DNA of 64,000 nucleotides from Proteromonas lacertae (taxonomy: Eukaryota), in contig NGBS01000586.1 of NCBI GenBank assembly GCA_002245135.1, forward strand, positions 1 through 64,000. Direction: 5' to 3'. The position numbers and the translations under genes are program-made. Below the pieces are notes generated by a model. It was not told where the DNA came from and searched no databases. It worked only from the letters and a program-made list of their open reading frames with translations. How positions within the stretch are numbered: the first letter of the stretch is position 1; every line of letters starts with the position of its first letter. Positions 15,708-55,155 of the stretch are shown here, one piece after another.

Positions 15708-15758
<51 letters not shown>

Positions 15759-22700: not shown

Positions 22701-23121
22701 TCCAATTGGAGATGAAGGAATAGAGATAATATGCGATAACTGTGATGAATTTGCTGAATATCAATTATCATTAAATCTTTCAAGTATTTTATCAATATAA
22801 TATGTTGTTATATTATGAATAGATGTTGGAATGAATGAGAAAGGATTAAAAATGTTAATAAAAAGTATAAAAAAGTATGGAAGGTTAAGAAATGTGGATA
22901 TATCAGGAAATGAATTAAATGAAGAAGGGTTGAGATTAATGAAAGAAAATAGTAAAATATTTGAATATACTAAATTAACAATGACAGTAAAAGAAAACAT
23001 AGATAAATCAGAGTTAAAATCATTTCTAAAAACATTTTCATCAGTTCATACAATAAAATTAGATGGAATATCAGAAGAAGAAAAGAAAGAATTATCTAAA
23101 CAATTCTTTAATATTGAATAA
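19792..23121 (+). CDS. Pseudokinase + ribonuclease-inhibitor-type LRR protein
   Basis: Kinase C-lobe motifs are degenerate (ISNLKSSN, KMCDL, FKSPEE, SVIWSIGCVLYEM). They are followed by LRRs such as LSLSGNEIGDEGMRLL, LYLYDNNIDSEG and ISIYGNPIGDEG. First intron 19846-19873. Confidence 0.8.
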
Positions 23122-23139
23122 TTGATAGATAATTAAATC

Positions 23140-23930
23140 TATTGTTTCTGAACTTTTACCTTGAAGTAATGAGGATCTACTGATAGAACTAATAATTGAC
23201 GATTTAATTTGGATTATTTATCACTTGAGATTTATTAAAATCTGTCACCTGAATTAAGATAAATATTCTGTATCAACTCCTGGTGTTTCTTCATCTTCTA
23301 CTTCATCTAAACTAATATTATCACTATTTATTACATTCTCAAAATTATTATTCCAACATTTGATAATAATTTTTCACCTGAGATTAATTCAGATCTTGAT
23401 TTCGTTATTGGTGGAGGTAGAATATCAGCTACTGATGGAAATAATAACAATTCAGCAAATGAACAACAAATTAAAGAATTAATTATAATAGATGTAAAAT
23501 CATTGCTGTACAAACATTGCCTTCTTCAGATAAACTATCACATGAAGTTAAATATACTGAACATAATATGATATTCATCTCTTCAACTCCAATAGATAAA
23601 ATATCTTGTATATCACATAAGAAGACAAATATCTCTTCAGGTATATCATCTAATATTGCAGGTACTTGTACTGCGGATTGAAATAATACTGCATCTAATA
23701 AGATTACTTAATCTTTTATGCAAGTAAATTCCTTAGAAGATTTCATCCAAGTAACATATATTACCAAAGAAGTAGCTTCTAGATATCTTCCAGATAGTTC
23801 TTATATCACTTCACAAGAAGATATTTTAATCATTTTTTGTATATATAGGCTTGATTCTCTCAAATATTCAAGCCAAACTTTCTCATTTTCTTTTTCTCAT
23901 TATCTCACGATTCATGAATCAATTATTCAA
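23140..23930 (-). pseudogene. Decayed coding fragment, weakly CLEC16A/gop-1-like; second copy at about 53190-53985 (+)
   Basis: Coding-like stretch LDDIPEEIFVFLCDIQDILSIGVEEMNIILCS interrupted by stops. The family call is only a loose resemblance. Confidence 0.25.
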
Positions 23931-24000
23931 TCAAAATGCATATTCAAAAACAAAAACATATTAATAAGAATAATATAAGGTATAATAATAATAATAATTT

Positions 24001-27000
24001 CTATTCAATTATCTTCTTCTTTCTGAGTTCTTGTTTTGGTGCTTCAGATGATATTGTTCTTGTTTCAAATCTATTCACAGGATTAAAAGACTTTCTAGCT
24101 AAAGGAGGTAATAATCCACTCTTTGTTAATTGATTTAATGGTTTATTCAATACTTCAGGTAATTCAACTTTAGTAGGTTGTCTAGGAGATGTATTATCTT
24201 TACTACCTGTTGTATCTATCGATGAATTTGAACTGTTTGTGTTAGTTTCTCCAAACTTGTGTGTTATTGATGAAGCATTACTTGGAACTCTCTTATAATT
24301 AAACTCATCACTATCTCTACTATTCATTCGAAGACTAATTCCAGTATTATGTAACATCATTCCATCTGGCTTTGAAGAATTCAAATCTTCTTTATCAATA
24401 TCAGCATCATCCATTGTAACTGGTAATTGAGGAACTTTCAAAGCAGGTAATTGACTTGGTCTTGATCCAACTGGCTTTAGTTTTCTTCTAGTCATTCTTC
24501 TCTTTGGAGCATGGAATACTTTTTGTTCTATTGGTTTTGCATCAACTGGTGGATTTTGTCCATTCTGTCCATTTGAACCAACTGTTGCACTACTTATTGG
24601 ATTGGCATCAGATGGAATTATTGTTTTCAATTGTTTTTCTTCTTTCTTTTCACGTAATTTCTTATATAAATACATAAACAACAATGACATTAAAACCATT
24701 AACCACCAGAAACAACATACACCAGCTGATAACCCAATTACTAAAGCTCCATATTCATCCATAAATGATTTCTCTTTTAATCTTACACAAACATTATTCT
24801 TTTCTTCCCATAAACCATTTTCATTACATTTTCTTGGACCTGATCCTTCATTATATACGAAAGTTGGTTTACACATACCTTCTGTTGAGTTATTTGTTAA
24901 TGTCGCATTCCATATTGTTGATTCATCTTCATAACCAAGACATCCTAATAACAATGCTGATGTGGAGATTATTTCATTTGTTTGTGTCTTTTCTAATATT
25001 ATTGTGATATTATTGATGGATGTTCCATCTACACAAAGTGGTTCATTAAATTTATGTAAATCAATTATTCCTTCTTTACAATCATAAAGAAATTCCTCAA
25101 AGAAATGCTTTTGATCGCTGTTTGGATATTTATAGGATATTGTTAAAGGTATTACACTTGATTGATTATCACAACTTCCAACATGAATTGTTAATAATGT
25201 TCCTTCTACACAGAATCTATTATCTTCAGGTGGTTTACTCACATATACTTGATCTAAGGAGAATGTTGTATCTTGATAATCTGGATAAGTACAATAACCA
25301 CTTATATTCTCATATTTACCTTCATCTTTATTACATATTGCTTTGGGTCTACAAGATATATTCACATATTCATATTCTGATAAACAATCTCCTAATACTA
25401 TATCATCTCCACCTGGAGATAAACCAAATTGAAATCTATCAACTGAATATGATAAACAACCTAATGTTAATGGCGTTTCTGATAGTTTATTATCATTATA
25501 ATCTATTTCAAAACTCATTGTATTTATATTTTCTTCTAAACATATTTCAGGTGATATTCTATATTCAGATACTAATCCTGCTTTACAACTATATGGGAAA
25601 CTATATAAGAACTTTTTAACTCCATTTATTATATAATACACTTTCAATTGTAGATTCAATGTTGGTTTTCGACATTCTTCTCCATTGAAATACACTTCTA
25701 AAACTTCACTAATACAAAATTGTTTTTCATCTTTCACACTAATCTCAAGTTTAGCAACATTAACTTCAGGATAATCTTTTGGTAAACATTCACTTATACT
25801 ACTGTAACTAGAATCAGATTGACACTTTGCTGTTGGATAAGGTGTATCAAAGATTATATAACCATCTATACATTCTCCTTCAACTATATCACCTGGTAAT
25901 GAAAGTGGGAAATTGGCATTAGCAAACTCTGTTGATCCACATCCTAAATTAGCTGTTAAATCAGTTATGAAATCATTTTCATTTGATAATGAGAATAATA
26001 CATTCTCATATGTATCATTTACACAAATTGGAGATGATGGTTTTATTTTATATTCATTCATTGTTTTACAATCAAATGTTAAATTAGAAAATAGTAATTC
26101 ATCTATTTCACCTGATAAAAGATAAGTTAAACGATAATCTACAAATGTAGTATTACAACTATTTATCTCATATGTCAATATGACAGAATGAATACAAAAC
26201 TTATTCTCACTAATTGATAAGAATGAATCATCAACTGATAGTTTAAAGTATTTATACTCATCTAATACACATCTACTACTCATTACTCCCCATCCTTTAC
26301 CTGTACATTCTCTCATTGGATTACCTGTTGGAGTATTAGCTTTATAACCACCAGCATCACAATAACCTTCATTCATTCCAACTAACGATATATACCAATT
26401 ATCTCTACCAACTTTCACTTTTTCACATCCTAATACATATTTATCTGATTTTTCATATTTTCCATCAACATAAAGATCAAAAATAATGTAATTTGATTGG
26501 TTTATATAAATACATCTTTCTTCACTTATTGTGAATTTGTTATTCTCTTGACACATGAATGAGATATTTGTTGATGAATAAGATTGTTTTTCTTCATCTT
26601 CTGTAAAATGAGAAAACAATGATAATTTAAAGTATTTTTCTACTGTTGGACATTCTTTTGAATAAACCAAATTCACTGTTTGTGAAACACAGAATTGATC
26701 AGAAGCAGTCAAAGCTCTAACATAGAATTCTTTATAATCGAATGTTAAATCTTTATAAGCTATTTTAATAAGAATAAATAACAATATTATACTCTGTTTA
26801 TAACATGGATATTCTATTTCTTCCCATAATCCATCAGCATTACATTTTCTGAATGGATTATTATCATTATTTGGATTATCAGATACATAACCATTTGAAC
26901 ATTTACCTATTATTGTCCCTGGTAAGGAAGTATTGAAATTATTCTCACTTTCTTCTATATATTCACATCCAAGAACTATAATATAATAATATATAATAGA

Positions 27001-30000
27001 TATATCTATATACCTTCAACATGACGAATAAATTCAGTTCTATTAAACTCTAATGTCAATTCTAAAGTTGTGCCAGGATATTTAACCAACAATGGAATTG
27101 GTAAAACAAAATCACTATCAAATACATTTCCAGAATGACATGTATAATTAAATGTCGTTAATAACACTTTCTGAGCTGATGAACCATAATAACCATAAAT
27201 ATCTAATGGAACAGTATCATTATCATCAGGATGACAGTTGTAATTCTCAAGATGCATATTAAACTTTCCACTTACATCAAAATCTTTATTAACAACTTTC
27301 TTACTATCAACTGTTAAATCAAATACAAGATGAGTAAATGCATTACTTACACATTTATAATAAACAGCATCACTGAAATATAAACCTTGAAAACATTCTC
27401 TATATGAATGTCCATCTGGTCCAACTGATATATATCCTTCTTGACAATCACCATAAACTACAGGTTTTGGCACAGATAATGGCCAATAAGCGTTATATTC
27501 AATTTTATTAACACACCATCTATTTGGCATATCACATTTATAAGGAGTTAAATCCCATGTTCCATTCTGAAAACAAACTTTTGTTGGAACTTCTTCTGGA
27601 CCATTCCAACCTGATGTTTCCCATATACTTGTATTTGGACAAACATTTGTCATTGGTTTTAAAGGACTTGGATCCCAATCTAAACCATTGGAACTAACAG
27701 CTTCACAATACAATGGTTGTGTATATTTTTGAATTATCTTTTCACATTTCTTATCCATACACATTCTACAATTTAAATATCTCACATTTATTCCACTATA
27801 ATCAGTGAAATTCTTTGTAAATACATTCTTTTTCTTGAAAACAATAATCTACTTCTTCTGTTATTACATCTCCATCTATAAAACTATTCTCAAATTGAGA
27901 TAAAGTGTATTGAAGATAAATGATTGGTTGGAATTTTGTACATTTTTTCAAGTCAGTTAAATATAATGGACCATTCAGTGTTACAGCTGTTACTATTTTT
28001 CTGTTTGAACTTAAATTCAAGTGTATATCCAAATCACCAAATTCCCAATCAAATTCTGGTCTTATTTGATATGTACATCCTTTCGATGGTGAAGACCAAC
28101 TTCCTCCCACTAAACATTTTCTTGTTGGAAAATCTGCTCCATCATCATTATCATATATATAATCAGGTAAACATCTTCCTGTTATATTTTCATTCACTAT
28201 TGATTGTAACCAAGATGCATTATAAGCATTTTCTTCTTCTTTACATGCTATTGGATATGTTTCTTGTTGAGATGGAACACTACAATCATCTAATCTTGTA
28301 GCTAAACATATCTTTGCATGTAAATTCAACTTATTCTCTTCAGATGGATAAACATGAACTAATCTTGTAAAACTGACAGGAGGAGTATTTCGACAATAAG
28401 AATCATTAGTATAATCTAATGGAACATAATCATTAAATGATTTCTCTAACAATGAATAACCAAATTTGATTTGAGTATCAGGAGGTAATATACTACATTT
28501 TACATAAGCAACTGTAAATGTAAAGGTTATATTGTATTCACCAGTTTCATTATTTATATAATTACCACTAACACCACTTAATGTTATTACTGTTCCAGGT
28601 AAATCAATCAACATACAACTGTTATTATAAGAACCCCATTTTCCATCAATATTACATTGTCTTTCTAATAATTGACTTTCTGGTTGAGTATAAAACTCTC
28701 TACATTCACCTAAATGAGTTCCAAATCCTGCTTTTCTCCATGTTACTTCATTTGCTTCATTTTCTGAACAGAATACTCTTTGAGTTTTGGTTTTTAGTAC
28801 TTTTGAACATGATGAATCTACACATAACTCAAATGTGAAATAATCATAAGAATATTCTAATTGAGAATATGCAGGAATTTCCATTTCATACTTATTACCT
28901 TCCCAACAATAAGGGATTTCTTTTGTTTTATAATAATCCATTATACCATCTTCTTCAGAAAAACCATATCTTACATATAAACTAAATGGTGTGAAATTAT
29001 AATTACATTCAAATCGATCATAAAGTGAGATATTTCCAAATATTACATTACTATCATATTCATCAATACTTGAATTAAGATAATCAAATGAGATTTCAAA
29101 TCCTGTTGTAATAGCTTCACATTTATAAGTAGTATCAAATGCTTTCCATAATCCATTTATATCACAATATCTCAATGGTCTTAAAGTTTTACCATTATAG
29201 TTAGTAAATGGTGGACAATCTCCTTCATTATATTGATCTAAACTACCATAATCCCATGTAATACTATAGGCAGTATCTTTATTACAATATGTTGCTTCTT
29301 TAAGTTCAGCAAAGGCAGAACCACAATTAAATATAGGATCACCATCTGGAGCAATTAAATAACTACTTAAATATTTATAATCAGATACTTCATTCTTCTT
29401 TATATATACATCATGATATAATGTATATGTATTATTATCTGTGAAACAATAAGGTATTACAATTTCCTTTAAAGAACATGGAAGTCTAACATATTTGAAA
29501 TCTGCAAAGATATAAGCAACTCTTAATGAATCAGGTTTCTTTGTATATTTACAGTAATAATCATCTTTTATTACAACATATCCATTCAAATGATAATATG
29601 ATGAATTAACAGATTCTATACTAAAGTTTCTACTCATTACAAATTTTGTTCCTGTATATTTACATGTTTGTGAGGTTGAAAATGCTTCAAATTGACCAGA
29701 TGGTAAACACAATGCTTTTGGTATATTTCCACCATCATATTCATGAAATTCTTCACAATAACCATATCCATATTCTCCTATCACTGCAGCACCCATAAAT
29801 CCAGATGATATTGATTTTGAAACACATGATAATTTGATATGATGCTTATTTAAAACAGCATTACATATTGGATCATAACAAAACATGAAATTCAATTGAT
29901 TATATGCTTTATTCACACTTACAGTATCTTTCAAACCAGTCATATTAAAATGATATGTACCATTCTCAAAACAATATGGTATTTTATGGACAGTTGTTGA

Positions 30001-33000
30001 ATATTTATTTATATCATTATTTATTAAGAATTTTACATATATTTCATTTGGTGTATAGGAAAATCTACATTCATCATTATCACGTAATATCATTATTCCA
30101 CCAACATGAACTAATTCTTTTTCATCAATTGTTACATTCAATAAACTTGTATCTACTGTAAAATGAGTATCCATTTTTTTACAAGCACCTGGTGGATAAT
30201 TATCCCATTTTCCATCTTCTTTACATTCTCTATAAGGTCTATAACCATCTGTATAATTGTGAAAAGCTTGACATATTCCTTCTACTACTTCTGATACATT
30301 ACTTAATCTCCATGATATTAAATGTTTTTCATCTGGACTGCAGAATGTTGCTATTGATTTTTGATCAAATGTTGTTTTGTTAGTTAAAGCATATTCTGGG
30401 AATGTTGGATACATTCTCCAATTCAAATAATGGTAATACTCTATATTATTCTTATGAACATTCTTAACTTCAATTGGATATATTACACTATCATTCTCAA
30501 AACAATATGTAAAATTAACAAATTTATCACCTATTTCAAATGTACTTGTATCATTCTCTATTTCTGTCCATCTATAGTGATTTGATACTAAATCTTGATG
30601 ACGAGTATAATTACATGACCATTTATCATCAATTTGAACATAACCAATGAAATTATAATAATCATTATTAACACTTGGTATTATGGATATATTTCCAGAT
30701 ATTTCAAAACCTGTTCCTTTATAATCACATCTTTCACTTTGTTTATTTGGCTGAATAAATTTACCTGATTCTTGACAAACACTTTCTGGATATTCACCTG
30801 GAATTGAGTAAGTATAAAATGCATAACAATAACCTTTGCTAGTTTCATTAAATGGACCATATTTAATATATAAATTATTCTCATAAAATCTTGTTTGATT
30901 ACAATATACAGCTATTATATATATATAAATAACATATACTAAGATTATAATATTGATTATCTTCTATTCTTCCATCTTCAAATCTAGCATAAAATTTGTT
31001 CATATATTCAGGCTTATTTGCTTTAAAATTAACTAAATCATATTCATATCTATCAAAATCTTCATTATATTTAACTTCAATCACTATCATGATAACTTGT
31101 ACATCCTGTACATACATTTTCAATTGAATATACAAATCCCAAATATATGGAAAGATATGCAGGAATAAATTCATATTTAACTTTTACTGTTTGAGTAATT
31201 GTTATTTTACCATTAATCACAGCATATCCATCTTCATCCATATAGGCTGTAGCATTTACATCAAAAACAAATACTCTATCTAAATCTGTACATCCTGTTT
31301 TTGATCTATTAAAGTAATTATAATATCCATTCTTTTCACATCTTCTTTCAAGATCATTTTTATCACCATAAAATTCAGTAAATACAGGGACAATGTCAGC
31401 AGTATGATTTAAACCAATACTAGTAGATGTCCAATACAATAAATTAATAGTTTCACTTGGACAATATGTTGCTATTACTATTTCTTGAAATGTTAAAGAA
31501 CTAGTAAAATTCCATCTTGGTTCATTCTTATATGGAGATAATCTTATTAAAGCATAATGGATGAATTACCAGATTGATAGTGAATTGAAGTTAATTGTAA
31601 AATTATAATATAATTTATTATTGAAACAATATGGTATAGCATAAGAATATTTTGTATTACTATAATCTCGATCAAATGATGTATTACTACTTGAAAAGAA
31701 GAATGTAATGTTAATATAATTTTGATGATATATATAATTACATTCTGAATGATCATCAATGTTTGCATATCCTCTTATACTATAGTAATATTTATTTTGA
31801 CTATCATAATAACTATATGGTTTATTTATATAAGCATCTATTTCAAATTGTGTGCCATTATAAAAACAATATTCATTACTATCTAAACTAGCAAAATTTC
31901 CATCTAATTCACATTCAGTTGATGGCTTTTTAGAATCATCAACATAATAATACATTGGAGCACAATAACCTTCAGTTGATGTATTTGTTGGAGTTGGTAC
32001 AAACCAAGCATTATTCTCATATAAACTTCGACATGTTAATACTATTCAAATATATATAACAATTATTATACTTCTATAATCTACTCCATATACTTCATTA
32101 GCTAAGAATCTATTATCTTTAAAAATCTTCACTACAAAATAATTACTAAACACTGCATTCTGATTCACATATATTTTATCAATTGGAATACTTAATACAT
32201 TATTATTAAAACAATAATTATAATATTTATCTACATAACCATATTTATAATTATCACATCTATCTGTGTATTCACTGTAACAATATACTATAGATAACTG
32301 TGAAGGAGGAAATGGAGAACCACACTCCAATATATCATGAATTAACACATTACCACTCACTTTTGTTTTATTAAATGATAAAACTTCAATTTTCAATTGT
32401 GAAAAATCAATTTTGAATATGTCACTTTCTTTAATGCATTCATTTGTTGTTGCTTCCCAATTTCCATCATCTTTACATTTTCTCTTATTATCAACTTTTG
32501 GTTTCCAGAATGTAATACATGTTCCATTAGCTATACCTGGAACTGAATTAACATAAGACATTTCACCAACTTTTTCAGCTTTACAGTAATTATCTATACA
32601 TTATTATAACAAATAAAATATACATGTATAGATATTACTATCATATTTGTAAGATTTTGCATCAGATAAAACTATATATAATGTTCTAATAGTTAAACTG
32701 CTTATTCCAATATTCAAATTATATGAATATGTATTGTTTATAAATGGATATGATATTTTACTACCTGAATTACAAGGTGTTGCTGGATTTGTTACTTTTG
32801 ATTGAAAACAAACATATAAATAAACTTCTGAAGGAGGATATAATCGAGTATTCATTGATAAATCATTAATAACTATTGTTCCATAAGCTTTTGGATTATT
32901 CACATTGGTATTATCAAATGTTACACCATCAAAGTTCATTTTTAATTCAGGTGCTATTCATATTTATATATACAAACATATATATACGTTTAAATTCACA

Positions 33001-35493
33001 TGAACTACTTGTTTCAATCCATCCAGTTGTTTGACATGTCAGTTTTGGAGCTTTTCCTTCTTCTTTATATTCATAACTTGTATTACATTTTCCTTCAACT
33101 TCTCCAATCAATGATAATGGAAATATCATATTATTTTTTACATAATCTTTACAGGATAATCCTATATAATAACATCATAATTAAATATTTATATACTTTT
33201 AGTATAAACAAAATCACTTGGATTATTTTCATCAGTTCCAATTCTTAAATGTAAAAAGTGTTCTTTTCCAGCCAATGATATTTTATTAGGAGGTATAATA
33301 TCTAATTGATTTCCTATGAAACAATAATCTTTACTTCCTTTTATGAAGTTACAAGTTGAATTTGTAGTATATATCTCAGTATCACATATTCCATATCTAT
33401 AATATAACTTTCCTTTATTACCTTTACAATTTGTACTATCTGTTACTTTTACTTTTCCTTCAATTGCAACTATGTTATTATTATTCATTTCTGTTTTAAC
33501 ATCAGAAACATCAACATTAAATTCTATTCAATTACAATAACAAATAATATTATATACTTGCTCCTTCAAATAAACATATATATGGAGAATATTCCCAAGT
33601 TCCATTATCTAAACATTTTCTTGATATTGCTGGATTTGAACCATCAAATTCATAGAATGGTTTACAGGCAAAATCATCATATGTTCTTGTTTGACCAGAT
33701 GGAGTTCTTTCCCAAGTTATATTATTAGTTATTGTTTCTTGACATACTAAATACACATCTTTTATTAAAAATTCATGTTTCATATCTTTTGTAAAAAATG
33801 TGAATATCAGTTTACTTTGTTGAGGTGTTTTACCAGGTGCTAATGGTAATTTGTTTTCAATATTCTGAATACAAGAAGCAATCTCACTTTGTGGTTTGTC
33901 TTTTCCACCATCATAATTGTAAGAAACTTTATATGTTAATGGAAATGTATTCTTTGAATCACATGTTGGATAAATGATTGTATAATTTCCACCTAATACT
34001 TTCTCATAATTATCATCCCAATCAATTTCTAATTTTATGTCAATATCAGGAACTATAATAATTATATTAATATAAATATATAAATACTGAATTCTTCACA
34101 GTTAGTTTTATCATTTGTAGTATATTTATTATTTCCTAAACATTCTCTGGTTGGTTTATCACCAGATCCAATCCATCTATAATATTCAACACATTTACCA
34201 TAACCAATACCTTTGATAGTAATATCCCAATCGATATTATATTCAACAGGATCAGGTGAATTACATTGAATATCTATTTATCATAATTAATAATGTTAAT
34301 AAATATACCAAATGAATCTATTATTAATTCATCTGTCATTTTGTTTGTTCCAAATACTCCAACTGATACTTCATAAAAATTATATGCAACTTCTTGAGTT
34401 GGAATTGATACTTTATTATCACTAAAACAATAGCTAACATTAACAGGAGTTATTCCATCAAATTTGGTATTACTTTTACTATCAAACATTACATATACAA
34501 ACATCTTTGGTAATAAAGTATTATCACATTTATCTGTTCTTAATATTATATTACCAGAATATTTAATTTTACCTTGACTTGATCCACTTGATATATAGGT
34601 TGATTCTACTTCACTAAAATCAACTGTAACTTTTGGAAATTTATATTTTACACAAGCATTATTATCAGCTGTTTCCCAAACACTGTTTGTACATTTTCTC
34701 ATTGGATTTACACCATCTACTCTATTGTGATATGTTAATTCACATTCTCCAGTTGCTTCTGTGTTTGTTGCTGTTATTGGATAGAATGTGTTATAGATTG
34801 ATTCACTTTCACAAACAATTTCTATTTAATATAAATTCATATAAATATACTGTAAGATTGACTTAACAACTTAAAACTATCACCTTTGGGGTAAGCTTTT
34901 ACATTAAAATATACATTGTGTAAATCAGATGTATGAACATTTACATTAAAAACTTCTGTATAATTATTCTTTGTATGACAACTATCAACAATCACACTCT
35001 TTGATTCATATAATGTAGTATTATCTCTTCCAAAACCCCAAATGTATTCAACTTTATAACCAACAACACTAAATTTATCATTCAATGCACACATTTCAGA
35101 ATCATGCACAGTAAAATAACCAGTTACATCATATCCACTGTCACTTACTTTGATTATAAGATTTTCAAAGTTTACTTGATATGGAGGTGGCCCTATTATT
35201 GCTTTAATATTACAAGTATACATTGAGCTAGCATACGGGGAGAATGATTGAGATAACATTTAAAGCTAATTTCTGACCACTGACCATTTGTACAGTTTCT
35301 GTATGGTAACTTCTCACTCACATATCCTTCATGACATTTAGAGGTGACTTGACCTTCTTCTGACTCTGGCCAATCGGCATAACCGTCATTAAGCTTTAAA
35401 GGACATTTAGTTTGCTAAAACAGTATAAGAAAAAAATATAGTACCTGAAACTATAGCAATAAACGCAAAAAGAAACGCAATAAGCACTTTCAT
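24001..35493 (-). CDS. Giant modular type I surface protein, copy A (apparent frameshifts; error or pseudogene)
   Basis: Signal peptide MKVLIAFLFAFIAIVSA; same exon structure as copy B; TM helix and cytoplasmic tail. Extra bases relative to copy B near 35410, 31560-31590, 31390, 31083 and 27840. Confidence 0.85.
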
Positions 35494-36487
35494 TCAAAAA
35501 ATAATGATAAAACCACCAAAAGGTGTAATTTCTATAAATTCTATTTCTACAGTATATACATACAGTTCCTGCTCAATATTTTGTTTAAAGTAATCTTATA
35601 AATTTTATTCTGCTGGGATAGCATTCTAATACATAACAATGTGATATTAATTAATATCTATAACTACAAGAAAAAAAATCTTAATATAAGAATATATTAG
35701 TTTTACTTTTGGCTTTTCATAGTGCGGCTATGATTATAAGCGCATGTTGTTCTTTATGCTACAAATTCACTATTGCTACTCTTATAATAATCGTTTATGT
35801 AAAAAAATTTGCATTAATGAGTATAATTATAACATTCTTATATTATAATTATTTCATTTTATTATTTTCTAAAAAGAGAAATTATCTATACTCCTACACA
35901 CTGGTGCTTTAATTTCGATATTATTAGTAAGGTATATATTGTCATTATAGACTTCTAAGATAATAAGCATCTTACTACAATGTGCTTAAGAAAAAAATAA
36001 GAACTATTTATTAGGAAATTATAGAATAACTTATATTCGTATTGATATGAGTTAATTATCAGATACTGCATTCCTTTCATTCAATTATTTACTATCTTCT
36101 TAACTTACTATTAGTTTGCTATTTATGCTATTATCTATTAGATAAATTCTAAAGTAACTAATTTTAATTTCAAAAATTATATCCGTTATTTTATACACTT
36201 CTATTTTTAAAGGGCAAAAAAAATATAATGTAAATATTGAAGTATAAATTCACTTCACATTAAAAATAAGTTCTAAGGTAGATTACTACAATTAACACTA
36301 CTTTTATATATTATTATTTCAAATGCCTAATTATGATATACTAAATGTAAAACCGAATGACTAATGATAAAAAAACTTAAAACCAAAATTGTGCATTTTT
36401 TTTTATGGGTTTGATTTGAGCAAATAAAGTGAAACTGACAAAACATTTTTTTTTGAAGTAGAAAGATTATAAAGGAAAATAAAAATT

Positions 36488-41625: not shown

Positions 41626-44600
41626 ATGAAAGTGGTTATTGCGTTTCTTTTTGCGTTTATTGCTATAGTTTCAGGTACTATTTTTTTTTCTTATACTGTT
41701 TTAGCAAATAAATGTCCTTTAAAACTGAATGACGGTTATGCCGATTGGCCAGAGTCAGAAGAAGGTCAAGTCACCTCTAAATGTCATGAAGGATATGTGA
41801 GTGAGAAGTTACCATACAGAAACTGTACAAATGGTCAGTGGTCAGAAATTAGCTTTAAATGTTATCCTCATGGTTCACCTCGTATGTTACAAGGAATTTG
41901 TATGCTTGTTGTTTTTTAGTGTATAATAGGGCCACCTGAGTATGAGATTAACTTTGAAAATCTGATAATCAAAGTAAGTGATAGTGGATATGATATAACA
42001 GGATTATTTTCTGTGTATGATGGTGCAAAATGTGATATGAATGAAATGTTCAAAGATTATGGTTATAAAGTTGAATACATTTGGGGTTTTGGAAGAGATA
42101 ATACAACTTTATATGAATCAGAGAGTGTTACAATTGATAGTTGTTACTCAGCTACCAATTATAAACAGGTTTTTAATGTAAATGTTCATACATCTGATTT
42201 ACACAACGTATATTTGAATGTTAGAAATAGAATGGCAACTACTACTTTTGATATTCTAAGTTGGTCATATAGTATATTTATATGAATTTATATTAAATAG
42301 AAATTGTTTGTGAAAGTGAATCAATCTATAACACATTCTATCCAATAACAGCAACAAACACAGAAGCAACTGGAGAATGTGAATTAACATATCACAATAG
42401 AGTAGATGGTGTAAATCCAATGAGAAAATGTACAAACAGTGTTTGGGAAACAGCTGATAATAATGCTTGTGTAAAATATAAATTTCCAAAAGTTACAGTT
42501 GATTTTAGTGAAGTAGAATCAACCTATATATCAAGTGGATCAAGTCAAGGTAAAATTAAATATTCTGGTAATATAATATTAAGAACAAATAAATGTGATA
42601 ATACTTTATTACCAAAGATGTTTGTATATGTAATGTTTGATAGTAAAAGTAATACCAAATTTGATGGAATAACTCCTGTTAATGTTAGCTATTGTTTTAG
42701 TGATTATAAAGTATCAATTCCAATTCCAACTCAAGAAGTTGCATATAATTTTTATGAAGTATCAGTTGGAGTATTTGGAACAAACAAAATGACAGATGAA
42801 TTAATAATAGATTCATTTGGTATATTTATTAACATTATTAATTATGATAAATAGATATTCAATGTAATTCACCTGATCCTGTTGAATATAATATCGATTG
42901 GGATATTACTATCAAAGGTATTGGTTATGGTAAATGTGTTGAATATTATAGATGGATTGGATCTGGTGATAAACCAACCAGAGAATGTTTAGGAAATAAT
43001 AAATATACTACAAATGATAAAACTAACTGTGAAGAATTCAGTATTTATATATTTATATTAATATAATTATTATAGTTCCTGATATTGACATAAAATTAGA
43101 AATTGATTGGGATGATAATTATGAGAAAGTATTAGGTGGAAATTATACAATCATTTATCCAACATGTGATTCAAAGAATACATTTCCATTAACATATAAA
43201 GTTTCTTACAATTATGATGGTGGAAAAGACAAACCACAAAGTGAGATTGCTTCTTGTATTCAGAATATTGAAAACAAATTACCATTAGCACCTGGTAAAA
43301 CACCTCAACAAAGTAAACTGATATTCACATTTTTTACAAAAGATATGAAACATGAATTTTTAACAAAAGATGTGTATTTAGTATGTCAAGAAACAATAAC
43401 TAATAATATAACTTGGGAAAGAACTCCATCTGGTCAAACAAGAACATATGATGATTTTGCCTGTAAACCATTCTATGAATTTGATGGTTCAAATCCAGCA
43501 ATATCAAGAAAATGTTTAGATAATGGAACTTGGGAATATTCTCCATATATATGTTTATTTGAAGGAGCAAGTATATAATATTATTTGTTATTGTAATTGA
43601 ATAGAATTTAATGTTGATGTTTCTGATGTTAAAACAGAAATGAATAATAATAATATAGTTGCAATTGAAGGAAAAGTAAAAGTAACAGATAGTACAAATT
43701 GTAAAGGTAATAAAGGAAAGTTATATTATAAATATGGAATATGTGATGCTGAGATATATACTACAAATTCAACTTGTAACTTCATAAAAGGAAGTAAAGA
43801 TTATTGTTTCATAGGAAATCAATTAGATATTATACCTCCTAATAAAATATCATTGGCTGGAAAAGAACACTTTTTACATTTAAGAATTGGAACTGATGAA
43901 AATAATCCAAGTGATTTTGTTTATACTAAAAGTATATAAATATTTAATTATGATGTTATTATATAGGATTATCCTGTAAAGATTATGTAAAAAATAATAT
44001 GATATTTCCATTATCATTGATTGGAGAAGTTGAAGGAAAATGTAATACAAGTTATGAATATAAAGAAGAAGGAAAAGCTCCAAAACTGACATGTCAAACA
44101 ACTGGATGGATTGAAACAAGTAGTTCATGTGAATTTAAACGTATATATATGTTTGTATATATAAATATGAATAGCACCTGAATTAAAAATGAACTTTGAT
44201 GGTGTAACATTTGATAATACCAATGTGAATAATCCAAAAGCTTATGGAACAATAGTTATTAATGATTTATCAATGAATACTCGATTATATCCTCCTTCAG
44301 AAGTTTATTTATATGTTTGTTTTCAATCAAAAGTAACAACTCCAGCAACACCTTGTAATTCAGGTAGTAAAATATTATATCCATTTATAAACAATACATA
44401 TTCATATAATTTGAATATTGGAATAAGCAGTTTAACTATTAGAACATTATATATAGTTTTATCTGATGCAAAATCTTACAAATATGATAGTAAAATCTAT
44501 ACATGTATATTTTATTTGTTATAATAATGTATAGATAATTACTGTAAAGCTGAAAAAGTTGGTGAAATGTCTTATGTTAATTCAGTTCCAGGTATAGCTA

Positions 44601-47600
44601 ATGGAACATGTATTACATTCTGGAAACCAAAAGTTGATAATAAGAGAAAATGTAAAGATGATGGAAATTGGGAAGCAACAACAAATGAATGCATTAAAGA
44701 AAGTGACATTTTCAAAATTGATTTTTCACAATTGAAAATTGAAGTTTTATCATTTAATAAAACAAAAGTGAGTGGTAATGTGTTAATTCATGATATATTG
44801 GAGTGTGGTTCTCCATTTCCTCCTTCACAGTTATCTATAGTATATTGTTACAGTGAATACACAGATAGATGTGATAATTATAAATATGGTTATGTAGATA
44901 AATATTATGCTTATTGTTTTAATAATAATGTATTAAGTATTCCAATTGATAAAATATATGTGAATCAGAATGCAGTGTTTAGTAATTATTTTGTAGTGAA
45001 GATTTTTAAAGATAATAGATTCTTAGCTAATGAAGTATATGGAGTAGATTATAGAAGTATAATAATTGTTATATATATTTGAATAGTATTAACATGTCGA
45101 AGTTTATATGAGAATAATGCTTGGTTTGTACCAACTCCAACAAATACATCAACTGAAGGTTATTGTGCTCCAATGTATTATTATGTTGATGATTCTAAAA
45201 AGCCATCAACTGAATGTGAATTAGATGGAAATTTTGCTAGTTTAGATAGTAATGAATATTGTTTTTATAATGGCACACAATTTGAAATAGATGCTTATAT
45301 AAATAAACCATATAGTTCTTATGATAGTCAAAATAAATATTACTATAGTATAAGAGGATATGCAAACATTGATGATCATTCAGAATGTAATTATATATAT
45401 CATCAAAATTATATTAACATTACATTCTTCTTTTCAAGTAGTAATACATCATTTGATCGAGATTATAGTAATACAAAATATTCTTATGCTATACCATATT
45501 GTTTCAATAATAAATTATATTATAATTTTACAATTAACTTCAATCACTATCAATCTGGTAATCACCATTATGCTTTAATAAGATTATCTCCATATAAGAA
45601 TGAACCAAGATGGAATTTTACTAGTTCTTTAACATTTCAAGAAATAGTAATAGCAACATATTGTCCTAGTGAAACTATTAATTTATTGTATTGGACATCT
45701 ACTAGTATTGGTTTAAATCATACTGCACATTGTCCTGTATTTACTGAATTTTATGGTGATAAAAATGATCTTGAAAGAAGATGTGAAAAGAATGGATATT
45801 ATAATTACTTTAATAGATCAAAAACAGGATGTACAGATTTAGATAGAGTATTTGTTTTTGATGTAAATGCTACAGCCTATATGGATGAAGATGGATATGC
45901 TGTGATTAATGGTAAAATAACAATTACTCAAACAGTTAAAGTTAAATATGAATTTATTCCTGCATATCTTTCCATATATTTGGGATTTGTATATTCAATT
46001 GAAAATGTATGTACAGGATGTACAAGTTATCATGATAGGATTGAAGTTAAATATAATGAAGATTTTGATAGATATGAATATGATTTAGTTAATTTTAAAG
46101 CAGATAAGCCTGAATATATGAACAAATTTTATGCTAAATTTGAAGATGGAAGAATAGAAGATAATCTATATTATAATCTTAGTATATGATATTTATATAT
46201 ATATAATAGCTGTATATTGTAATCAAACAAGATTTTATGAGAATAATTTATATATTAAATATGGTCCATTTAATGAAACTAGCAAAGGTTATTGTTATGC
46301 ATTTTATACTTACTCAATTCCAGGTGAATATCCAGAAAGCGTTTGTCAAGAATCAGGTAAATTTATTCAGCCAAATAAACAAAGTGAAAGATGTGATTAT
46401 AAAGGAACAGGTTTTGAAATATCTGGAAATATATCCATAATACCAAGTGTTAATAATGATTATTATAATTTCATTGGTTATGTTCAAATTGATGATAAAT
46501 GGTCATGTAATTATACTCGTCATCAAGATTTAGTATCAAATCACTATAGATGGACAGAAATAGAGAATGATACAAGTACATTTGAAATAGGTGATAAATT
46601 TGTTAATTTTACATATTGTTTTGAGAATGATAGTGTAATATATCCAATTGAAGTTAAGAATGTTCATAAGAATAATATAGAGTATTATCATTATTTGAAT
46701 TGGAGAATGTATCCAACATTCCCAGAATATGCTTTAACTAACAAAACAACATTTGATCAAAAATCAATAGCAACATTCTGCAGCCCAGATGAAAAACATT
46801 TAATATCATGGAGATTAAGTAATGTATCAGAAGTAGTAGAAGGAATATGTCAAGCTTTTCACAATTATACAGATGGTTATAGACCTTATAGAGAATGTAA
46901 AGAAGATGGAAAATGGGATAATTATCCACCAGGTGCTTGTAAAAAAATGGATACTCATTTTACAGTAGATACAAGTTTATTGAATGTAACAATTGATGAA
47001 AAAGAATTAGTTCATGTTGGTGGAATAATGATATTACGTGATAATGATGAATGTAGATTTTCATATACACCAAATGAAATATATGTAAGATTCTTAATAA
47101 ATAATGATATAAATAAATATTCAACAACTGTCCATAAAATACCATATTGTTTTGAGAATGGTACATATCATTTTAATATGACTGGTTTGAAAGATACTGT
47201 AAGTGTGAATAAAGCATATAATCAATTGAATTTCATGTTTTGTTATGATCCAATATGTAATGCTGTTTTAAATAAGCATCATATCAAATTATCATGTGTT
47301 TCAAAGTCAATATCATCTGGATTTATGGGTGCTGCAGTGATAGGAGAATATGGATATGGTTATTGTGAAGAATTTCATGAATATGATGGTGGAAATATAC
47401 CAAAAGCATTGTGTTTACCATCTGGTCAATTTGAAGCATTTTCAACCTCACAAACATGTAAATATACAGGAACAAAATTTGTAATGAGTAGAAACTTTAG
47501 TATAGAATCTGTTAATTCATCATATTATCATTTGAATGGATATGTTGTAATAAAAGATGATTATTACTGTAAATATACAAAGAAACCTGATTCATTAAGA

Positions 47601-50600
47601 GTTGCTTATATCTTTGCAGATTTCAAATATGTTAGACTTCCATGTTCTTTAAAGGAAATTGTAATACCTTATTGTTTCGCAGATAATAATACATATACAT
47701 TATATCATGATGTATATATAAAGAAGAATGAAGTATCTGATTATAAATATTTAAGTAGTTATTTAATTGCTCCAGATGGTGATCCTATATTTAATTGTGG
47801 TTCAGCCTTTGCTGAACTTAAAGAAGCAACATATTGTAATAAAGATACTGCTTATAGTATTACATGGGATTATGGTAGTTTAGATCAATATAATGAAGGA
47901 GATTGTCCACCATTTACTAACTATAATGGTAAAACTGTAAGACCATTGAGATATTGTGATATAAATGGATTATGGAAAGCATTTGATACTACTTATAAAT
48001 GTGAAGCTATTACAACAGGATTTGAAATCTCATTTGATTATCTTAATTCAAGTATTGATGAATATGATAGTAATGTAATATTTGGAAATATCTCACTTTA
48101 TGATCGATTTGAATGTAATTATAATTTCACACCATTTAGTTTATATGTAAGATATGGTTTTTCTGAAGAAGATGGTATAATGGATTATTATAAAACAAAA
48201 GAAATCCCTTATTGTTGGGAAGGTAATAAGTATGAAATGGAAATTCCTGCTTATTCTCAATTAGAATATTCTTATGATTATTTCACATTTGAGTTATGTG
48301 TAGATTCATCATGTTCAAAAGTACTAAAAACCAAAACTCAAAGAGTATTCTGTTCAGAAAATGAAGCAAATGAAGTAACATGGAGAAAAGCAGGATTTGG
48401 AACTCATTTAGGTGAATGTAGAGAGTTTTATACTCAACCAGAAAGTCAATTATTAGAAAGACAATGTAATATTGATGGAAAATGGGGTTCTTATAATAAC
48501 AGTTGTATGTTGATTGATTTACCTGGAACAGTAATAACATTAAGTGATGTTAGTGGTAATTATATAAATAATGAAACTGGTGAATATAATATAACCTTTA
48601 CATTTACAGTTGCTTATGTAAAATGTAGTATATTACCTCCTGATACTCAAATCAAATTTGGTTATTCATTGTTAGAGAAATCATTTAATGATTATGTTCC
48701 ATTAGATTATACTAATGATTCTTATTGTCGAAATACTCCTCCTGTCAGTTTTACAAGATTAGTTCATGTTTATCCATCTGAAGAGAATAAGTTGAATTTA
48801 CATGCAAAGATATGTTTAGCTACAAGATTAGATGATTGTAGTGTTCCATCTCAACAAGAAACATATCCAATAGCATGTAAAGAAGAAGAAAATGCTTATA
48901 ATGCATCTTGGTTACAATCAATAGTGAATGAAAATATAACAGGAAGATGTTTACCTGATTATATATATGATAATGATGATGGAGCAGATTTTCCAACAAG
49001 AAAATGTTTAGTGGGAGGAAGTTGGTCTTCACCATCGAAAGGATGCACATATCAAATAAGACCAGAATTTGATTGGGAATTTGGTGATTTGGATATACAC
49101 TTGAATTTAAGTTCAAACAGAAAAATAGTAACAGCTGTAACACTGAATGGTCCATTATATTTAACTGACTTGAAAAAATGTACAAAATTCCAACCAATCA
49201 TTTATCTTCAATACACTTTATCTCAATTTGAGAATAGTTTTATAGATGGAGATGTAATAACAGAAGAAGTAGATTATTGTTTCAAGAAAAAGAATGTATT
49301 TACAAAGAATTTCACTGATTATAGTGGAATAAATGTGAGATATTTAAATTGTAGAATGTGTATGGATAAGAAATGTGAAAAGATAATTCAAAAATATACA
49401 CAACCATTGTATTGTGAAGCTGTTAGTTCCAATGGTTTAGATTGGGATCCAAGTCCTTTAAAACCAATGACAAATGTTTGTCCAAATACAAGTATATGGG
49501 AAACATCAGGTTGGAATGGTCCAGAAGAAGTTCCAACAAAAGTTTGTTTTCAGAATGGAACATGGGATTTAACTCCTTATAAATGTGTATATCCAGATGA
49601 ATGGTGTCCAAAGGAAACAAAGTATAATGCTTATTGGCCAATATCTGTGCCAAAACCTGTAGTTTATGGTGATTGTCAAGAAGGATATATATCAGTTGGA
49701 CCAGATGGACATTCATATAGAGAATGTTTTCAAGGTTTATATTTCAGTGATGCTGTTTATTATAAATGTGTAAGTAATGCATTTACTCATCTTGTATTTG
49801 ATTTAACAGTTGATAATAAGAAAGTTGTTAATAAAGATTTCGATGTAAGTGGAAAGTTTAATATGCATCTTGAAAATTACAACTGTCATCCTGATGATAA
49901 TGATACTGTTCCATTAGATATTTATGGTTATTATGGTTCATCAGCTCAGAAAGTGTTATTAACTACATTTAATTATACATGTCATTCTGGAAATGTATTT
50001 GATAGTGATTTTGTTTTACCAATTCCATTGTTGGTTAAATATCCTGGCACAACTTTAGAATTGACATTAGAGTTTAATAGAACTGAATTTATTCGTCATG
50101 TTGAAGGTATATAGATATATCTATTATATATTATTATTATTATAGTTCTTGGATGTGAATATATAGAAGAAAGTGAGAATAATTTCAATACTTCCTTACC
50201 AGGGACAATAATAGGTAAATGTTCAAATGGTTATGTATCTGATAATCCAAATAATGATAATAATCCATTCAGAAAATGTAATGCTGATGGATTATGGGAA
50301 GAAATAGAATATCCATGTTATAAACAGAGTATAATATTGTTATTTATTCTTATTAAAATAGCTTATAAAGATTTAACATTCGATTATAAAGAATTCTATG
50401 TTAGAGCTTTGACTGCTTCTGATCAATTCTGTGTTTCACAAACAGTGAATTTAGTTTATTCAAAAGAATGTCCAACAGTAGAAAAATACTTTAAATTATC
50501 ATTGTTTTCTCATTTTACAGAAGATGAAGAAAAACAATCTTATTCATCAACAAATATCTCATTCATGTGTCAAGAGAATAACAAATTCACAATAAGTGAA

Positions 50601-53120
50601 GAAAGATGTATTTATATAAACCAATCAAATTACATTATTTTTGATCTTTATGTTGATGGAAAATATGAAAAATCAGATAAATATGTATTAGGATGTGAAA
50701 GAGTGAAAGTTGGTAGAGATAATTGGTATATATCGTTAGTTGGAATGAATGAAGGTTATTGTGATGCTGGTGGTTATAAAGCTAATACTCCAACAGGTAA
50801 TCCAATGAGAGAATGTACAAGTAAAGGATGGGGAGTAATGAGTAGTAGATGTGTATTAGATGAGTATAAATACTTTAAACTATCAGTTGATGATTCATTC
50901 TTATCAATTAGTGAGAATAAGTTTTGTATTCATTCTGTCATATTGACATATGAGATAAATAGTTGTAATACTACATTTGTAGATTATCGTTTAACTTATC
51001 TTTTATCAGGTGAAATAGATGAATTACTGTTTTCTAATTTAACATTTGATTGTAAAACAATGAATGAATACAAAATCAAACCATCATCTCCAATTTGTGT
51101 AAATGATACATATGAGAATGTATTATTCTCATTATCAAATGAAAATGATTTCATAACTGATTTAACAGCTAATTTAGGATGTGGATCAACAGAGTTTGCT
51201 AATGCCAATTTCCCACTTTCATTACCAGGTGATATAGTTGAAGGAGAATGTATAGATGGTTATATAATCTTTGATACACCTTATCCAACAGCAAAGTGTC
51301 AACCTGATTCTAGTTACAGTAGTATAAGTGAATGTTTACCAAAAGATTATCCTGAAGTTAATGTTGATAAACTTGAGATTAGTGTGAAAGATGACAAACA
51401 ATTTTGTATTAGTGAAGTTTTAGAAGTGTATTTCAATGGAGAAGAATGTCGAAAACCAACATTGAATCTACAATTGAAAGTGTATTATATAATAAATGGA
51501 GTTAAAAAGTTCTTATATAGTTTCCCATATAGTTGTAAAGCAGGATTAGTATCTGAATATAGAATATCACCTGAAATATGTTTAGAAGAAAATGTAAATA
51601 CAATGAGTTTTGAAATAGATTATAATGATAATAAACTATCAGAAACACCATTAACATTAGGTTGTTTATCATATTCAGTTGATAGATTTCAATTTGGTTT
51701 ATCTCCAGGTGGAGATGATATAGTATTAGGAGATTGTTTATCAGAATATGAATATGTGAATATATCTTGTAAACCCAAAGCAATATGTAATAAAGATGAA
51801 GGTAAATATGAGAATATAAGTGGTTATTGTACTTATCCAGATTATCAAGATACGACATTCTCCTTAGATCAAGTATATGTGAGTAAACCACCTGAAGATA
51901 ATAGATTCTGTGTAGAAGGAACATTATTAACAATTCATGTTGGAAGTTGTGATAATCAATCAAGTGTAATACCTTTAACAATATCCTATAAATATCCAAA
52001 CAGTGATCAGAAACATTTCTTTGAAGAATTTCTTTATGATTGTAAAGAAGGAATAATTGATTTACATAAATTTAATGAACCACTTTGTGTAGATGGAACA
52101 TCCATCAATAATATCACAATAATATTAGAAAAGACACAAACAAATGAAATAATCTCCACATCAGCATTGTTATTAGGATGTCTTGGTTATGAAGATGAAT
52201 CAACAATATGGAATGCGACATTAACAAATAACTCAACAGAAGGTATGTGTAAACCAACTTTCGTATATAATGAAGGATCAGGTCCAAGAAAATGTAATGA
52301 AAATGGTTTATGGGAAGAAAAGAATAATGTTTGTGTAAGATTAAAAGAGAAATCATTTATGGATGAATATGGAGCTTTAGTAATTGGGTTATCAGCTGGT
52401 GTATGTTGTTTCTGGTGGTTAATGGTTTTAATGTCATTGTTGTTTATGTATTTATATAAGAAATTACGTGAAAAGAAAGAAGAAAAACAATTGAAAACAA
52501 TAATTCCATCTGATGCCAATCCAATAAGTAGTGCAACAGTTGGTTCAAATGGACAGAATGGACAAAATCCACCAGTTGATGCAAAACCAATAGAACAAAA
52601 AGTATTCCATGCTCCAAAGCGAAGAATGACTAGAAGAAAATTAAAGCCAGTAGGATCAAGACCAAGTCAATTACCTGCTTTGAAAGTTCCTCAATTACCA
52701 GTTACAATGGATGATGCTGATATTGATAAAGAAGATTTGAATTCTTCAAAGCCAGATGGAATGATGTTACATAATACTGGAATTAGTCTTCGAATGAATA
52801 GTAGAGATAGTGATGAGTTTAATTATAAGAGAGTTCCAAGTAATGCTTCATCAATAACACACAAGTTTGGAGAAACTAACACAAACAGTTCAAATTCATC
52901 GATAGATACAACAGGTAGTAAAGATAATACATCTCCTAGACAACCTACTAAAGTTGAATTACCTGAAGTATTGAATAAACCATTAAATCAATTAACAAAG
53001 AGTGGATTATTACCTCCTTTAGCTAGAAAGTCTTTTAATCCTGTGAATAGATTTGAAACAAGAACAATATCATCTGAAGCACCAAAACAAGAACTCAGAA
53101 AGAAGAAGATTATTGAATAG
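41626..53120 (+). CDS. Giant modular type I surface protein, copy B (intact, 3,690 aa)
   Basis: Thirteen introns (41675-41704, 41900-41929, 42272-42300, 42820-42854, 43041-43075, 43571-43604, 43932-43966, 44141-44174, 44505-44534, 45057-45086, 46182-46209, 50107-50145, 50329-50361; 422 nt total) leave an 11,073-nt reading frame. It encodes a signal peptide, 21 C-x-W-x-G-x-C-x-R-x-C-x-G-x-W-x-C modules, 19 beta-rich domains, TM GALVIGLSAGVCCFWWLMVLMSLLFMYLY and a Ser/Pro-rich tail. Confidence 0.92.
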
Positions 53121-55031: not shown

Positions 55032-55155
55032 GAATCAATCTTGTCACTCATTATAAAAAAGTCAAATCATAAAAAAATACAAGTCAGAGTCTTTTAAGAT
55101 GATGTATTTGATAAAAAAGAATCTAATAACAAAACATAAACAGACAAAATCTTAA

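What the first reader, a model, noticed from the sequence alone, without database searches (positions are those of the whole stretch)
41626..53120. Unrecognised 3,690-aa architecture: alternating HRM-like Cys modules and beta domains
Seen: 21 modules of about 55 aa with four Cys (e.g. CSENEANEVTWRKAGFGTHLGEC...LERQCNIDGKWGSYNNSC). They alternate with 19 beta-rich domains of about 110-130 aa, each usually with an internal Cys pair. There are many N-glycosylation sequons, one TM helix containing CC, and a roughly 215-aa cytoplasmic tail. Known: the Cys/Trp spacing resembles the hormone-receptor (HRM) domain of class B/adhesion GPCRs. Inference: a long rod-like adhesin or receptor projecting its tip beyond the surface coat.
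Basis: partly seen in the sequence, partly recalled or inferred. Interest (0 to 1): 0.7.

Follow-up and report, generated by a model that had tools for sequence, protein, structure and literature searches.

The report
Giant sushi–Ig surface rod, variable tip
A likely relative of the gut protist Blastocystis has a gene for a predicted 3,690-residue membrane protein built from 40 alternating small domains, present in two near-identical copies that differ mainly in the predicted outward-facing loops of the tip, so it likely works as a long adhesion stalk with a changeable binding end.

Summary
41626-53120(+) is one predicted spliced gene (14 exons, 13 short introns) of exactly 3,690 aa: signal peptide, 21 four-Cys modules, 19 beta domains, one TM helix, ~218-aa tail. 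The Cys module passes Pfam HRM, but its predicted fold is closest to the Eph-receptor sushi domain (Z 8.3, against 5.1 or less for GPCR hormone domains). The beta domain is a seven-strand Ig/FN3-like sandwich. There is no GAIN, 7TM or kinase, so it is not a GPCR or Eph. (1) All 13 introns are phase 1 and sit at module borders; relatives share those positions. (2) A second, inverted copy (24001-35493) is 99% identical except the tip Ig domain (66%), where changes cluster in the predicted distal loops. (3) A neighbouring gene places the host as sister to Blastocystis; orthologues and paralogues with other module orders exist, unnamed. InterPro HRM counts for this lineage are already in a supplementary table, but I found no description of this architecture. 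Best reading: a lineage-specific adhesin or recognition stalk with a diversified tip. Expression and ligand are untested, and copy B is frameshifted as assembled.

The parts
41626..53120 (+). Copy A: whole gene, 14 exons, predicted 3,690-aa type I membrane protein (H = 4-Cys sushi/HRM-like module, B = Ig/FN3-like sandwich)
41626..41674 (+). Exon 1: predicted signal peptide (aa 1-16)
   Evidence: hydropathy peak; intron 3 residues before Cys1 of H1
41705..41899 (+). Exon 2: H1 plus a longer linker (aa 17-81)
   Evidence: (Sushi E 3e-4, HRM E 3e-4)
41930..42271 (+). Exon 3: tip domain B1 (aa 82-195), the region that differs between the two copies
42301..42819 (+). Exon 4: H2-B2
   Evidence: orthologous exon ORF P0147
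42855..43040 (+). Exon 5: H3
43076..43570 (+). Exon 6: B3-H4
   Evidence: HRM above cut-off
43605..43931 (+). Exon 7: B4
43967..44140 (+). Exon 8: H5
   Evidence: P0248
44175..44504 (+). Exon 9: B5
44535..45056 (+). Exon 10: H6-B6
   Evidence: P0143
45087..46181 (+). Exon 11: H7-B7-H8-B8
   Evidence: P0130
46210..50106 (+). Exon 12: H9-B9 ... H14-B14-H15-H16-B15 (1,299 aa); second variable patch at the H15/H16 junction (aa 2538-2549, about 49587-49622)
   Evidence: P0316, P0317, P0123
50146..50328 (+). Exon 13: H17
50362..53120 (+). Exon 14: B16-H18-B17-H19-B18-H20-B19-H21, TM helix, tail, stop
   Evidence: P0124 and P0318 end at the same C-terminus
52371..52454 (+). Single predicted TM helix (about aa 3442-3469) with CC; starts 12 residues after the last Cys of H21
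   Evidence: 96% identical in orthologue
52464..53117 (+). Cytoplasmic tail, ~218 aa, Ser/Lys/Pro-rich, basic juxtamembrane stretch, no Pfam domain
   Evidence: 77% identical in orthologue
24001..35493 (-). Copy B: inverted duplicate with the same 13 introns and a divergent tip; 9 single inserted bases in exons (3 uncompensated frameshifts) as assembled
22655..35545 (-). Duplicated segment (98.07% to 41572-54468), including 1.3 kb downstream of the gene

Best explanation
This is a predicted single-pass surface protein of a likely Blastocystis-related gut protist, whose 21 sushi-type and 19 Ig/FN3-like predicted domains likely form a glycosylated, disulphide-braced stalk that would hold a variable binding domain far from the membrane for adhesion or recognition. 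Shown by sequence: gene model, module order, phase-1 introns at module borders, two copies with a mosaic tip, purifying selection on the stalk. Predicted: both folds. Inferred: the abutting domains make a semi-rigid rod (about 130 nm at full stretch, from recalled domain sizes); the tip sandwich B1, freed from H1 by a longer linker, binds through its BC, C'E and FG loops as FN3/Ig binders do; the family grew by duplicating frame-neutral class 1-1 exons and swaps tip exons by recombination or gene conversion; the non-catalytic tail anchors to the cytoskeleton or trafficking machinery.
For: Model of H12-B12: pLDDT 93.4, pTM 0.84, seven strands in the beta domain; generic Ig/FN3/MG-type matches, best Z 9.4, rmsd 2.6 over 97 residues. 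H alone: pLDDT 94.9, EphA2 sushi Z 8.3, rmsd 1.6 over 57 of 58 residues. Sequon excess. Between the copies the stalk is 99.2% identical with dN/dS 0.22 (p 9e-9 against neutrality), the tip 66.1% with dS 0.52 against 0.016. Tip differences fall in BC/C'E/FG loops 21 of 27 against AB/CC'/EF loops 0 of 20, whereas stalk domains compared with orthologues show the reverse, 100 of 403 against 119 of 299. Orthologous exons are 68-78% identical, TM 96%, tail 77%. Paralogues keep the H-B-H-TM-tail end but vary module order. No catalytic or GPCR domain among the 13 exon pieces at E up to 5.
Against: No expression, localisation or ligand data. Tip dN/dS is 0.48, below 1, so positive selection is not shown. 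The loop result rests on two sequences, depends on the alignment (15 of 23 against 6 of 31 with the other alignment), and uses strand labels and pole assignment inferred from a model of B12, not B1; conversion tracts make residues non-independent, so the p value is overstated. Copy B has a stop at codon 19 as assembled and may be a pseudogene, an error-laden copy or an uncollapsed allele. The Ig-like match is generic and shows no function. Rod geometry was not measured. The host placement rests on one neighbouring gene and a quick tree.
Confidence: 0.58

Rival explanations
1. A structural coat or surface-hair protein: a glycosylated spacer with no specific ligand, whose exposed tip varies only to escape host antibodies or predators.
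For: 66 sequons, repetitive build, several paralogues, a mosaic tip with dN/dS below 1. Exposed-loop variation fits immune escape as well as ligand choice.
Against: A conserved 218-aa tail (77% in an orthologue, 100% between copies) and strong residue-level stalk conservation are more than a passive coat needs. Only one of 40 domains varies much.
Confidence: 0.2
2. A kinase-less signalling or mechanosensing receptor that clusters through its Eph-type sushi domains and signals through tail adaptors, for example in self/non-self or mating recognition.
For: Sushi fold closest to the Eph CRD; unnamed proteins use the same module in front of FN3-TM-kinase (P0125, P0128, P0132, P0146); conserved TM and juxtamembrane motif across paralogues.
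Against: No catalytic or adaptor domain in the tail; no GAIN/GPS; clustering surfaces were not tested.
Confidence: 0.15
3. A sensor of host peptide hormones through its HRM domains, as in class B GPCRs.
For: Pfam HRM above cut-off; best PDB sequence matches are CRFR and PTH1R ectodomains, E 0.002-0.008.
Against: Four Cys, not six, and no helix in the models; structural Z 4.2-5.1 to GPCR domains against 8.3 to Eph sushi; 21 copies used as spacers; variation lies in B1, while H1 is identical between copies.
Confidence: 0.03
4. The second copy is an assembly artefact (an uncollapsed allele), so the tip variation is allelic and not paralogous; copy A is still a real gene.
For: 98% identity, duplicated flank, and insertion-only frameshifts in B that look like read errors.
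Against: The copies are inverted on one contig with unrelated upstream DNA and a 6-kb unique spacer. Even as alleles the tip divergence (dS 0.52) would need long-term maintenance or conversion.
Confidence: 0.15

Closest known systems
Eph receptor ectodomain (EphA2/EphB2 sushi-EGF-FN3)
   Same: Best structural match of the Cys module (Z 7.5-8.3, rmsd 1.5-1.7); sushi followed by beta sandwiches; single TM.
   Different: No ligand-binding jelly-roll, EGF, kinase or SAM domain by Pfam; the sushi-sandwich pair is repeated 19 times.
HRM (PF02793) of adhesion and secretin GPCRs
   Same: Sequence passes the Pfam cut-off; four-Cys, W...G-x-W pattern.
   Different: Single-pass, no GAIN/GPS, no 7TM, 21 copies; weaker structural match (Z 5.1 or less).
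Fonticula alba non-GPCR HRM membrane proteins (PMC12716839) and unnamed HRM(n)-FN3-TM-kinase proteins
   Same: Tandem HRM/sushi-like modules in non-GPCR ectodomains; retrieved by my profile (P0182, P0125, P0128, P0132, P0146).
   Different: They lack the B domain (no match) and the alternation; several carry a kinase.
InterPro HRM-superfamily genes counted in Blastocystis and Proteromonas (PMC10690189 Table S4)
   Same: Same lineage, same domain label: IPR036445 in 42 P. lacertae, 57-107 tortoise and 12-16 human Blastocystis genes, 0 in Cafeteria.
   Different: Only counts; no architecture given, and 'hormone' and 'sushi' do not occur in the main text of the published version.
Animal class 1-1 mosaic proteins such as CCP/Ig/FN3 adhesion molecules (PMC8001218)
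   Same: Extracellular modules bounded by phase-1 introns.
   Different: Unicellular stramenopile host (inferred); 30-nt introns; duplication within a family is shown, shuffling between unrelated genes is not.

Membership tests
Adhesion GPCR | HRM domain by profile | tested here: met
   Pfam HRM above cut-off in 3 of 13 exon pieces
Adhesion GPCR | GAIN/GPS domain next to the membrane | tested here: not met
   No Pfam match at E up to 5; only 12 residues lie between H21 and the TM
Adhesion GPCR / class B1 GPCR | Seven TM helices | tested here: not met
   One TM peak besides the signal peptide
Class B1 hormone-binding ectodomain | Six Cys and an N-terminal helix forming the peptide groove (feature recalled) | tested here: not met
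   Four invariant Cys; no helix of 4 or more residues in either model
Eph receptor | Sushi-type domain of the Cys-rich region | tested here: met
   Z 8.3, rmsd 1.6, 57 of 58 residues, on a predicted model
Eph receptor | Ephrin-binding domain, tyrosine kinase and SAM | tested here: not met
   No such Pfam match; the ectodomain is fully tiled by H and B units and the tail is ~218 aa, low in aromatics
CCP/SCR sushi (PF00084) | Profile match and fold | tested here: inconclusive
   Above cut-off only for H1 (21.5 against 20.7 bits); Z 6.5 to CD46/DAF, below Eph
CCP/SCR sushi and HRM | C1-C3, C2-C4 disulphide pairing | not testable with these tools
   Model coordinates are not returned
Ig-like/FN3-type beta sandwich (fold) | Seven-strand two-sheet sandwich | tested here: met
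   Seven strands; Z 7-9.4 to Sec63 Ig-like, MG, GH2 Ig-like and FN3 domains; no single family stands out
Immunoglobulin superfamily proper | Core disulphide between strands B and F (feature recalled) | tested here: not met
   The conserved Cys pair lies in the BC and C'E loops; strand B has no Cys
Class 1-1 modular protein (Patthy criteria, PMC8001218) | Introns at domain borders | tested here: met
   13 of 13: eight exactly 3 residues before Cys1, five 4-13 residues after Cys4; such windows cover about 10% of the ectodomain
Class 1-1 modular protein (Patthy criteria, PMC8001218) | Non-random, identical intron phase | tested here: met
   13 of 13 phase 1; blind detector 10 of 10 in copy A against 6 of 15 in other genes, p 0.003
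Class 1-1 modular protein (Patthy criteria, PMC8001218) | Module moved between unrelated genes by intronic recombination | tested here: inconclusive
   Module order differs among paralogues and H occurs in other architectures, but no DNA of those genes was available

The most novel reading that the evidence does not exclude
Blastocystis-lineage gut protists carry an undescribed family of giant recognition proteins, assembled independently of animals from class 1-1 exons, in which an antibody-like tip domain is diversified by exon-level exchange on a conserved stalk; and the Eph-sushi/HRM module is an old eukaryotic ectodomain spacer found well outside holozoans, from which the GPCR hormone domain and the Eph sushi both derive.
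Probability: 0.3. Interest if true: 0.8.

Novelty: new variant of a known kind. Interest (0 to 1): 0.55.

Why it matters
How Blastocystis-lineage gut protists attach to or recognise host and microbes is poorly known, and this gives a concrete candidate with a single 113-aa domain to test. It also bears on two published generalisations. [quoted passage not shown] PMC8001218 holds that class 1-1 modular extracellular proteins are practically restricted to animals; this gene meets its two diagnostic signs, although exon shuffling in brown algae is already in print (PMC3341825, PMC11378527; search listing only).

Tried and rejected
No genome is held for the window. RNA runs: no RNA holder listed. 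Word-based search of exon 12 against longer proteins: none among 3,111 candidates. JGI metagenome contigs: 297 pattern matches, none confirmed. Earlier findings: nothing returned in three look-ups. ESM Atlas: only weak HRM/sushi clusters, score 0.77 or less. No tandem DNA repeats in the gene and no internal blastn self-matches, so the modules are old duplications. A reassigned genetic code was rejected: all three stop types interrupt each frame and the frame shifts between exons. The first gene-model script proposed 18 introns; I removed 5 in-frame, stop-free ones by hand (41940, 43256, 44977, 51482, 52425: three phase 2, one phase 1, one phase 0) because they cut conserved strands, a conserved Cys or the TM; orthologues align as protein through 44977, 51482 and 52425. 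Alignment A2 was misregistered and not used. Foldseek gave no match at E 0.001 or better for either model. A long-dead pseudogene B was rejected: at 30 of 36 stalk differences covered by orthologues, these match A 8 times, B 6 times, neither or both 16 times. Literature searches listed no description of this architecture; the library lacks most subscription papers, and the P. lacertae genome paper cited by PMC10690189 was not read. No complex prediction was run.
Full report
1. Observation. The interval is a eukaryotic gene in 25-29% GC DNA, broken into ORFs by short AT-rich introns. A splice-aware script proposed 18 introns. I kept 13 GTA...TAG introns of 28-39 nt and dropped 5 in-frame, stop-free calls by hand (see Tried and rejected). 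11 of the 13 introns are forced by a stop or frameshift. The protein has a signal peptide, 21 modules with four invariant Cys (H), 19 beta domains of 106-133 aa (B), one TM helix and a ~218-aa tail. 16 of 19 B domains beat all 200 shuffles in a leave-one-out profile test. Sequons are in excess: 66 against 39.4 +/- 5.5, 0 of 500 shuffles.

Independent support for the gene model comes from unnamed assembly ORFs that match single exons at 68-78% identity. P0147, P0248, P0143, P0130, P0123 and P0316 stop matching at the window's predicted donors and run into intron-like sequence; P0124 and P0318 end at the same C-terminus. No RNA holder was listed, so one transcript is predicted, not shown.

2. 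Host. The EHD gene at 8117-9634 is 63-64% identical to Blastocystis proteins and, among full-length matches, 57% or less to anything else listed. In a quick tree of 31 rows (30 of the 120 listed hits, picked by me, plus the window) it is sister to all eight Blastocystis-clade rows with SH-aLRT 100. A DNAAF5-type HEAT domain at 15201-15797 (E 3e-15) hints at a flagellated relative, since Blastocystis lost flagellar genes (PMC12129017, passages). I infer an opalinate stramenopile, Proteromonas-like; this rests on one gene.

3. What the modules are. Pfam HRM passes its cut-off in 3 of 13 exon pieces; Sushi and Ephrin_CRD match weakly; no GAIN, GPS, 7TM or kinase appears at E up to 5. An H+B profile finds CRFR and PTH1R ectodomains first among solved structures, at E 0.002-0.008. 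Structure says more. H alone folds at pLDDT 94.9 with no helix and matches the EphA2 sushi domain at Z 8.3, rmsd 1.6 over 57 of 58 residues; CCP modules reach 6.5 and GPCR hormone domains 4.2-5.1 (Foldseek TM 0.78-0.82 for the best EphA2 rows against 0.59-0.69 for GPCR domains). H12-B12 folds at pLDDT 93.4, pTM 0.84. B is a seven-strand sandwich with generic matches to Sec63 Ig-like, macroglobulin, GH2 Ig-like and FN3 domains, best Z 9.4. Its conserved Cys pair lies in the BC and C'E loops.

4. Family. Of 1.84 billion representatives, 197 matched the profile at E 0.001 or better; 150 were listed. 12 of the 150 carry B; the 8 of these 12 that I looked up are unnamed Logan proteins. They include orthologues and 25-36% paralogues with other module orders, such as P0121 and P0288. 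The other 138 showed only H, mostly tandem. Of 22 looked up, three carry organism names: Fonticula alba, Thecamonas trahens and Ca. Phycorickettsia. Four of 16 proteins scanned are H(n)-FN3-kinase receptors. A supplementary table of PMC10690189 (rows seen) counts IPR036445 genes: Cafeteria 0, P. lacertae 42, tortoise Blastocystis 57-107, human Blastocystis 12-16. So HRM-labelled genes in this lineage are on record as counts. Six literature searches listed no description of the architecture.

5. Exon structure. All 13 introns are phase 1. Eight lie exactly 3 residues before Cys1 of an H and five lie 4-13 residues after Cys4. A blind detector of ORF-joining introns found 10 of 10 phase 1 in each copy against 6 of 15 in other genes (p 0.003); 5 of those 6 lie in one LRR gene region. 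P0317 ends in intron-like sequence 4 residues after Cys4 of H12, where the window has no intron, so more borders once had introns. Paralogue ORFs also end at module borders with a phase-1-type read-through (13 of 20 by pattern; inferred from protein only). These are the two diagnostic signs of class 1-1 modules in PMC8001218 (passages and first part of section 2.3), which calls such proteins practically restricted to animals. Exon shuffling in brown algae is already reported (PMC3341825, PMC11378527; listing only). What is shown here is module duplication within a family, not exchange between unrelated genes.

6. The second copy. 41572-54468 is repeated, inverted, at 35545-22655 (98.07%). Outside two patches the proteins are 99.2% identical, dS 0.016, dN/dS 0.22. 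The tip (aa 72-196, ending at the exon 3 donor) is 66.1% identical, dS 0.52, dN/dS 0.48; a 12-residue patch at the H15/H16 junction also differs. The 33-fold higher dS means the tip has a different history, through conversion of the stalk or replacement of the tip exon. Mapped on the B12 model, differences occupy 21 of 27 positions in the BC, C'E and FG loops and 0 of 20 in AB, CC' and EF; with the other alignment, which shifts strand F, it is 15 of 23 against 6 of 31. In FN3-type topology (recalled) the first three loops face the N-terminal, membrane-distal end. In stalk domains compared with orthologues those loops are the more conserved ones (25% against 40% changed), as expected if they pack on the preceding H. 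H1 joins B1 by a longer linker, which would expose them. Copy B carries nine single inserted bases in exons and stops at codon 19 as assembled; it shows no excess of derived changes, so read error or very recent loss are both possible.

7. Mechanism. Most likely a glycosylated, disulphide-braced stalk presents a variable Ig-like tip for adhesion or recognition in the gut, anchored by one helix and a conserved non-catalytic tail (confidence 0.58). Rivals: passive coat or hair protein with immune-driven tip variation (0.2), kinase-less clustering receptor (0.15), hormone sensor (0.03). Rod shape, ligand and localisation are all inferred.

8. Comparison and verdict. It works like a stalked modular adhesin, and is not a member of the adhesion GPCR, class B1, Eph or immunoglobulin families by the tests listed. 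PMC12716839 (passages) reports HRM outside holozoans only in Fonticula but lists no stramenopiles among the proteomes searched; this gene and the InterPro counts extend the range, while the fold result suggests the label covers a wider sushi superfamily. PMC5608401 (passages) does not mention such proteins under the terms searched. Other supplements were not read. Verdict: real, a new variant of a known kind, interest 0.55.

Noticed in passing
window ~40042-41315 (+): DHDPS/N-acetylneuraminate-lyase-like gene (Pfam DHDPS E 8e-42) that, read across short introns by eye, starts with a signal-peptide-like stretch and ends in a hydrophobic TM-like stretch: possibly a surface-anchored sialic-acid lyase directly upstream of copy A.
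   Followed up: partly
window 2805-6828 (-): Alpha-2-macroglobulin-like gene (Pfam A2M E 1.6e-8, TED E 1e-3) in a likely stramenopile.
   Followed up: no
window 15201-16863 (+): DNAAF5-type HEAT repeat gene (E 3e-15), hinting at a flagellated host.
   Followed up: partly
window 54467-55082 and 16344-16974: A further 93% inverted match continues the duplication beyond a 5.7-kb gap holding a kinase-LRR gene (19874-23121), whose 3' end is duplicated at about 54001-54303; the copy A side looks rearranged.
   Followed up: no
window 36607-39921 (+): Multi-TM gene in the 6-kb spacer between the two copies; resembles an OSCA/TMEM63 channel by eye (recalled), but Pfam gave no such match on the three pieces scanned.
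   Followed up: no
P0125, P0128, P0132, P0146 (unnamed metagenome proteins): Receptor kinases with 8-21 tandem HRM/sushi-like modules, FN3 and a TM helix; hosts unknown.
   Followed up: partly
P0210: A 2,167-aa protein of the bacterium Ca. Phycorickettsia trachydisci with about seven HRM-like modules.
   Followed up: no
window 59565-64000 (+): Long coiled-coil-like gene running off the window end.
   Followed up: no
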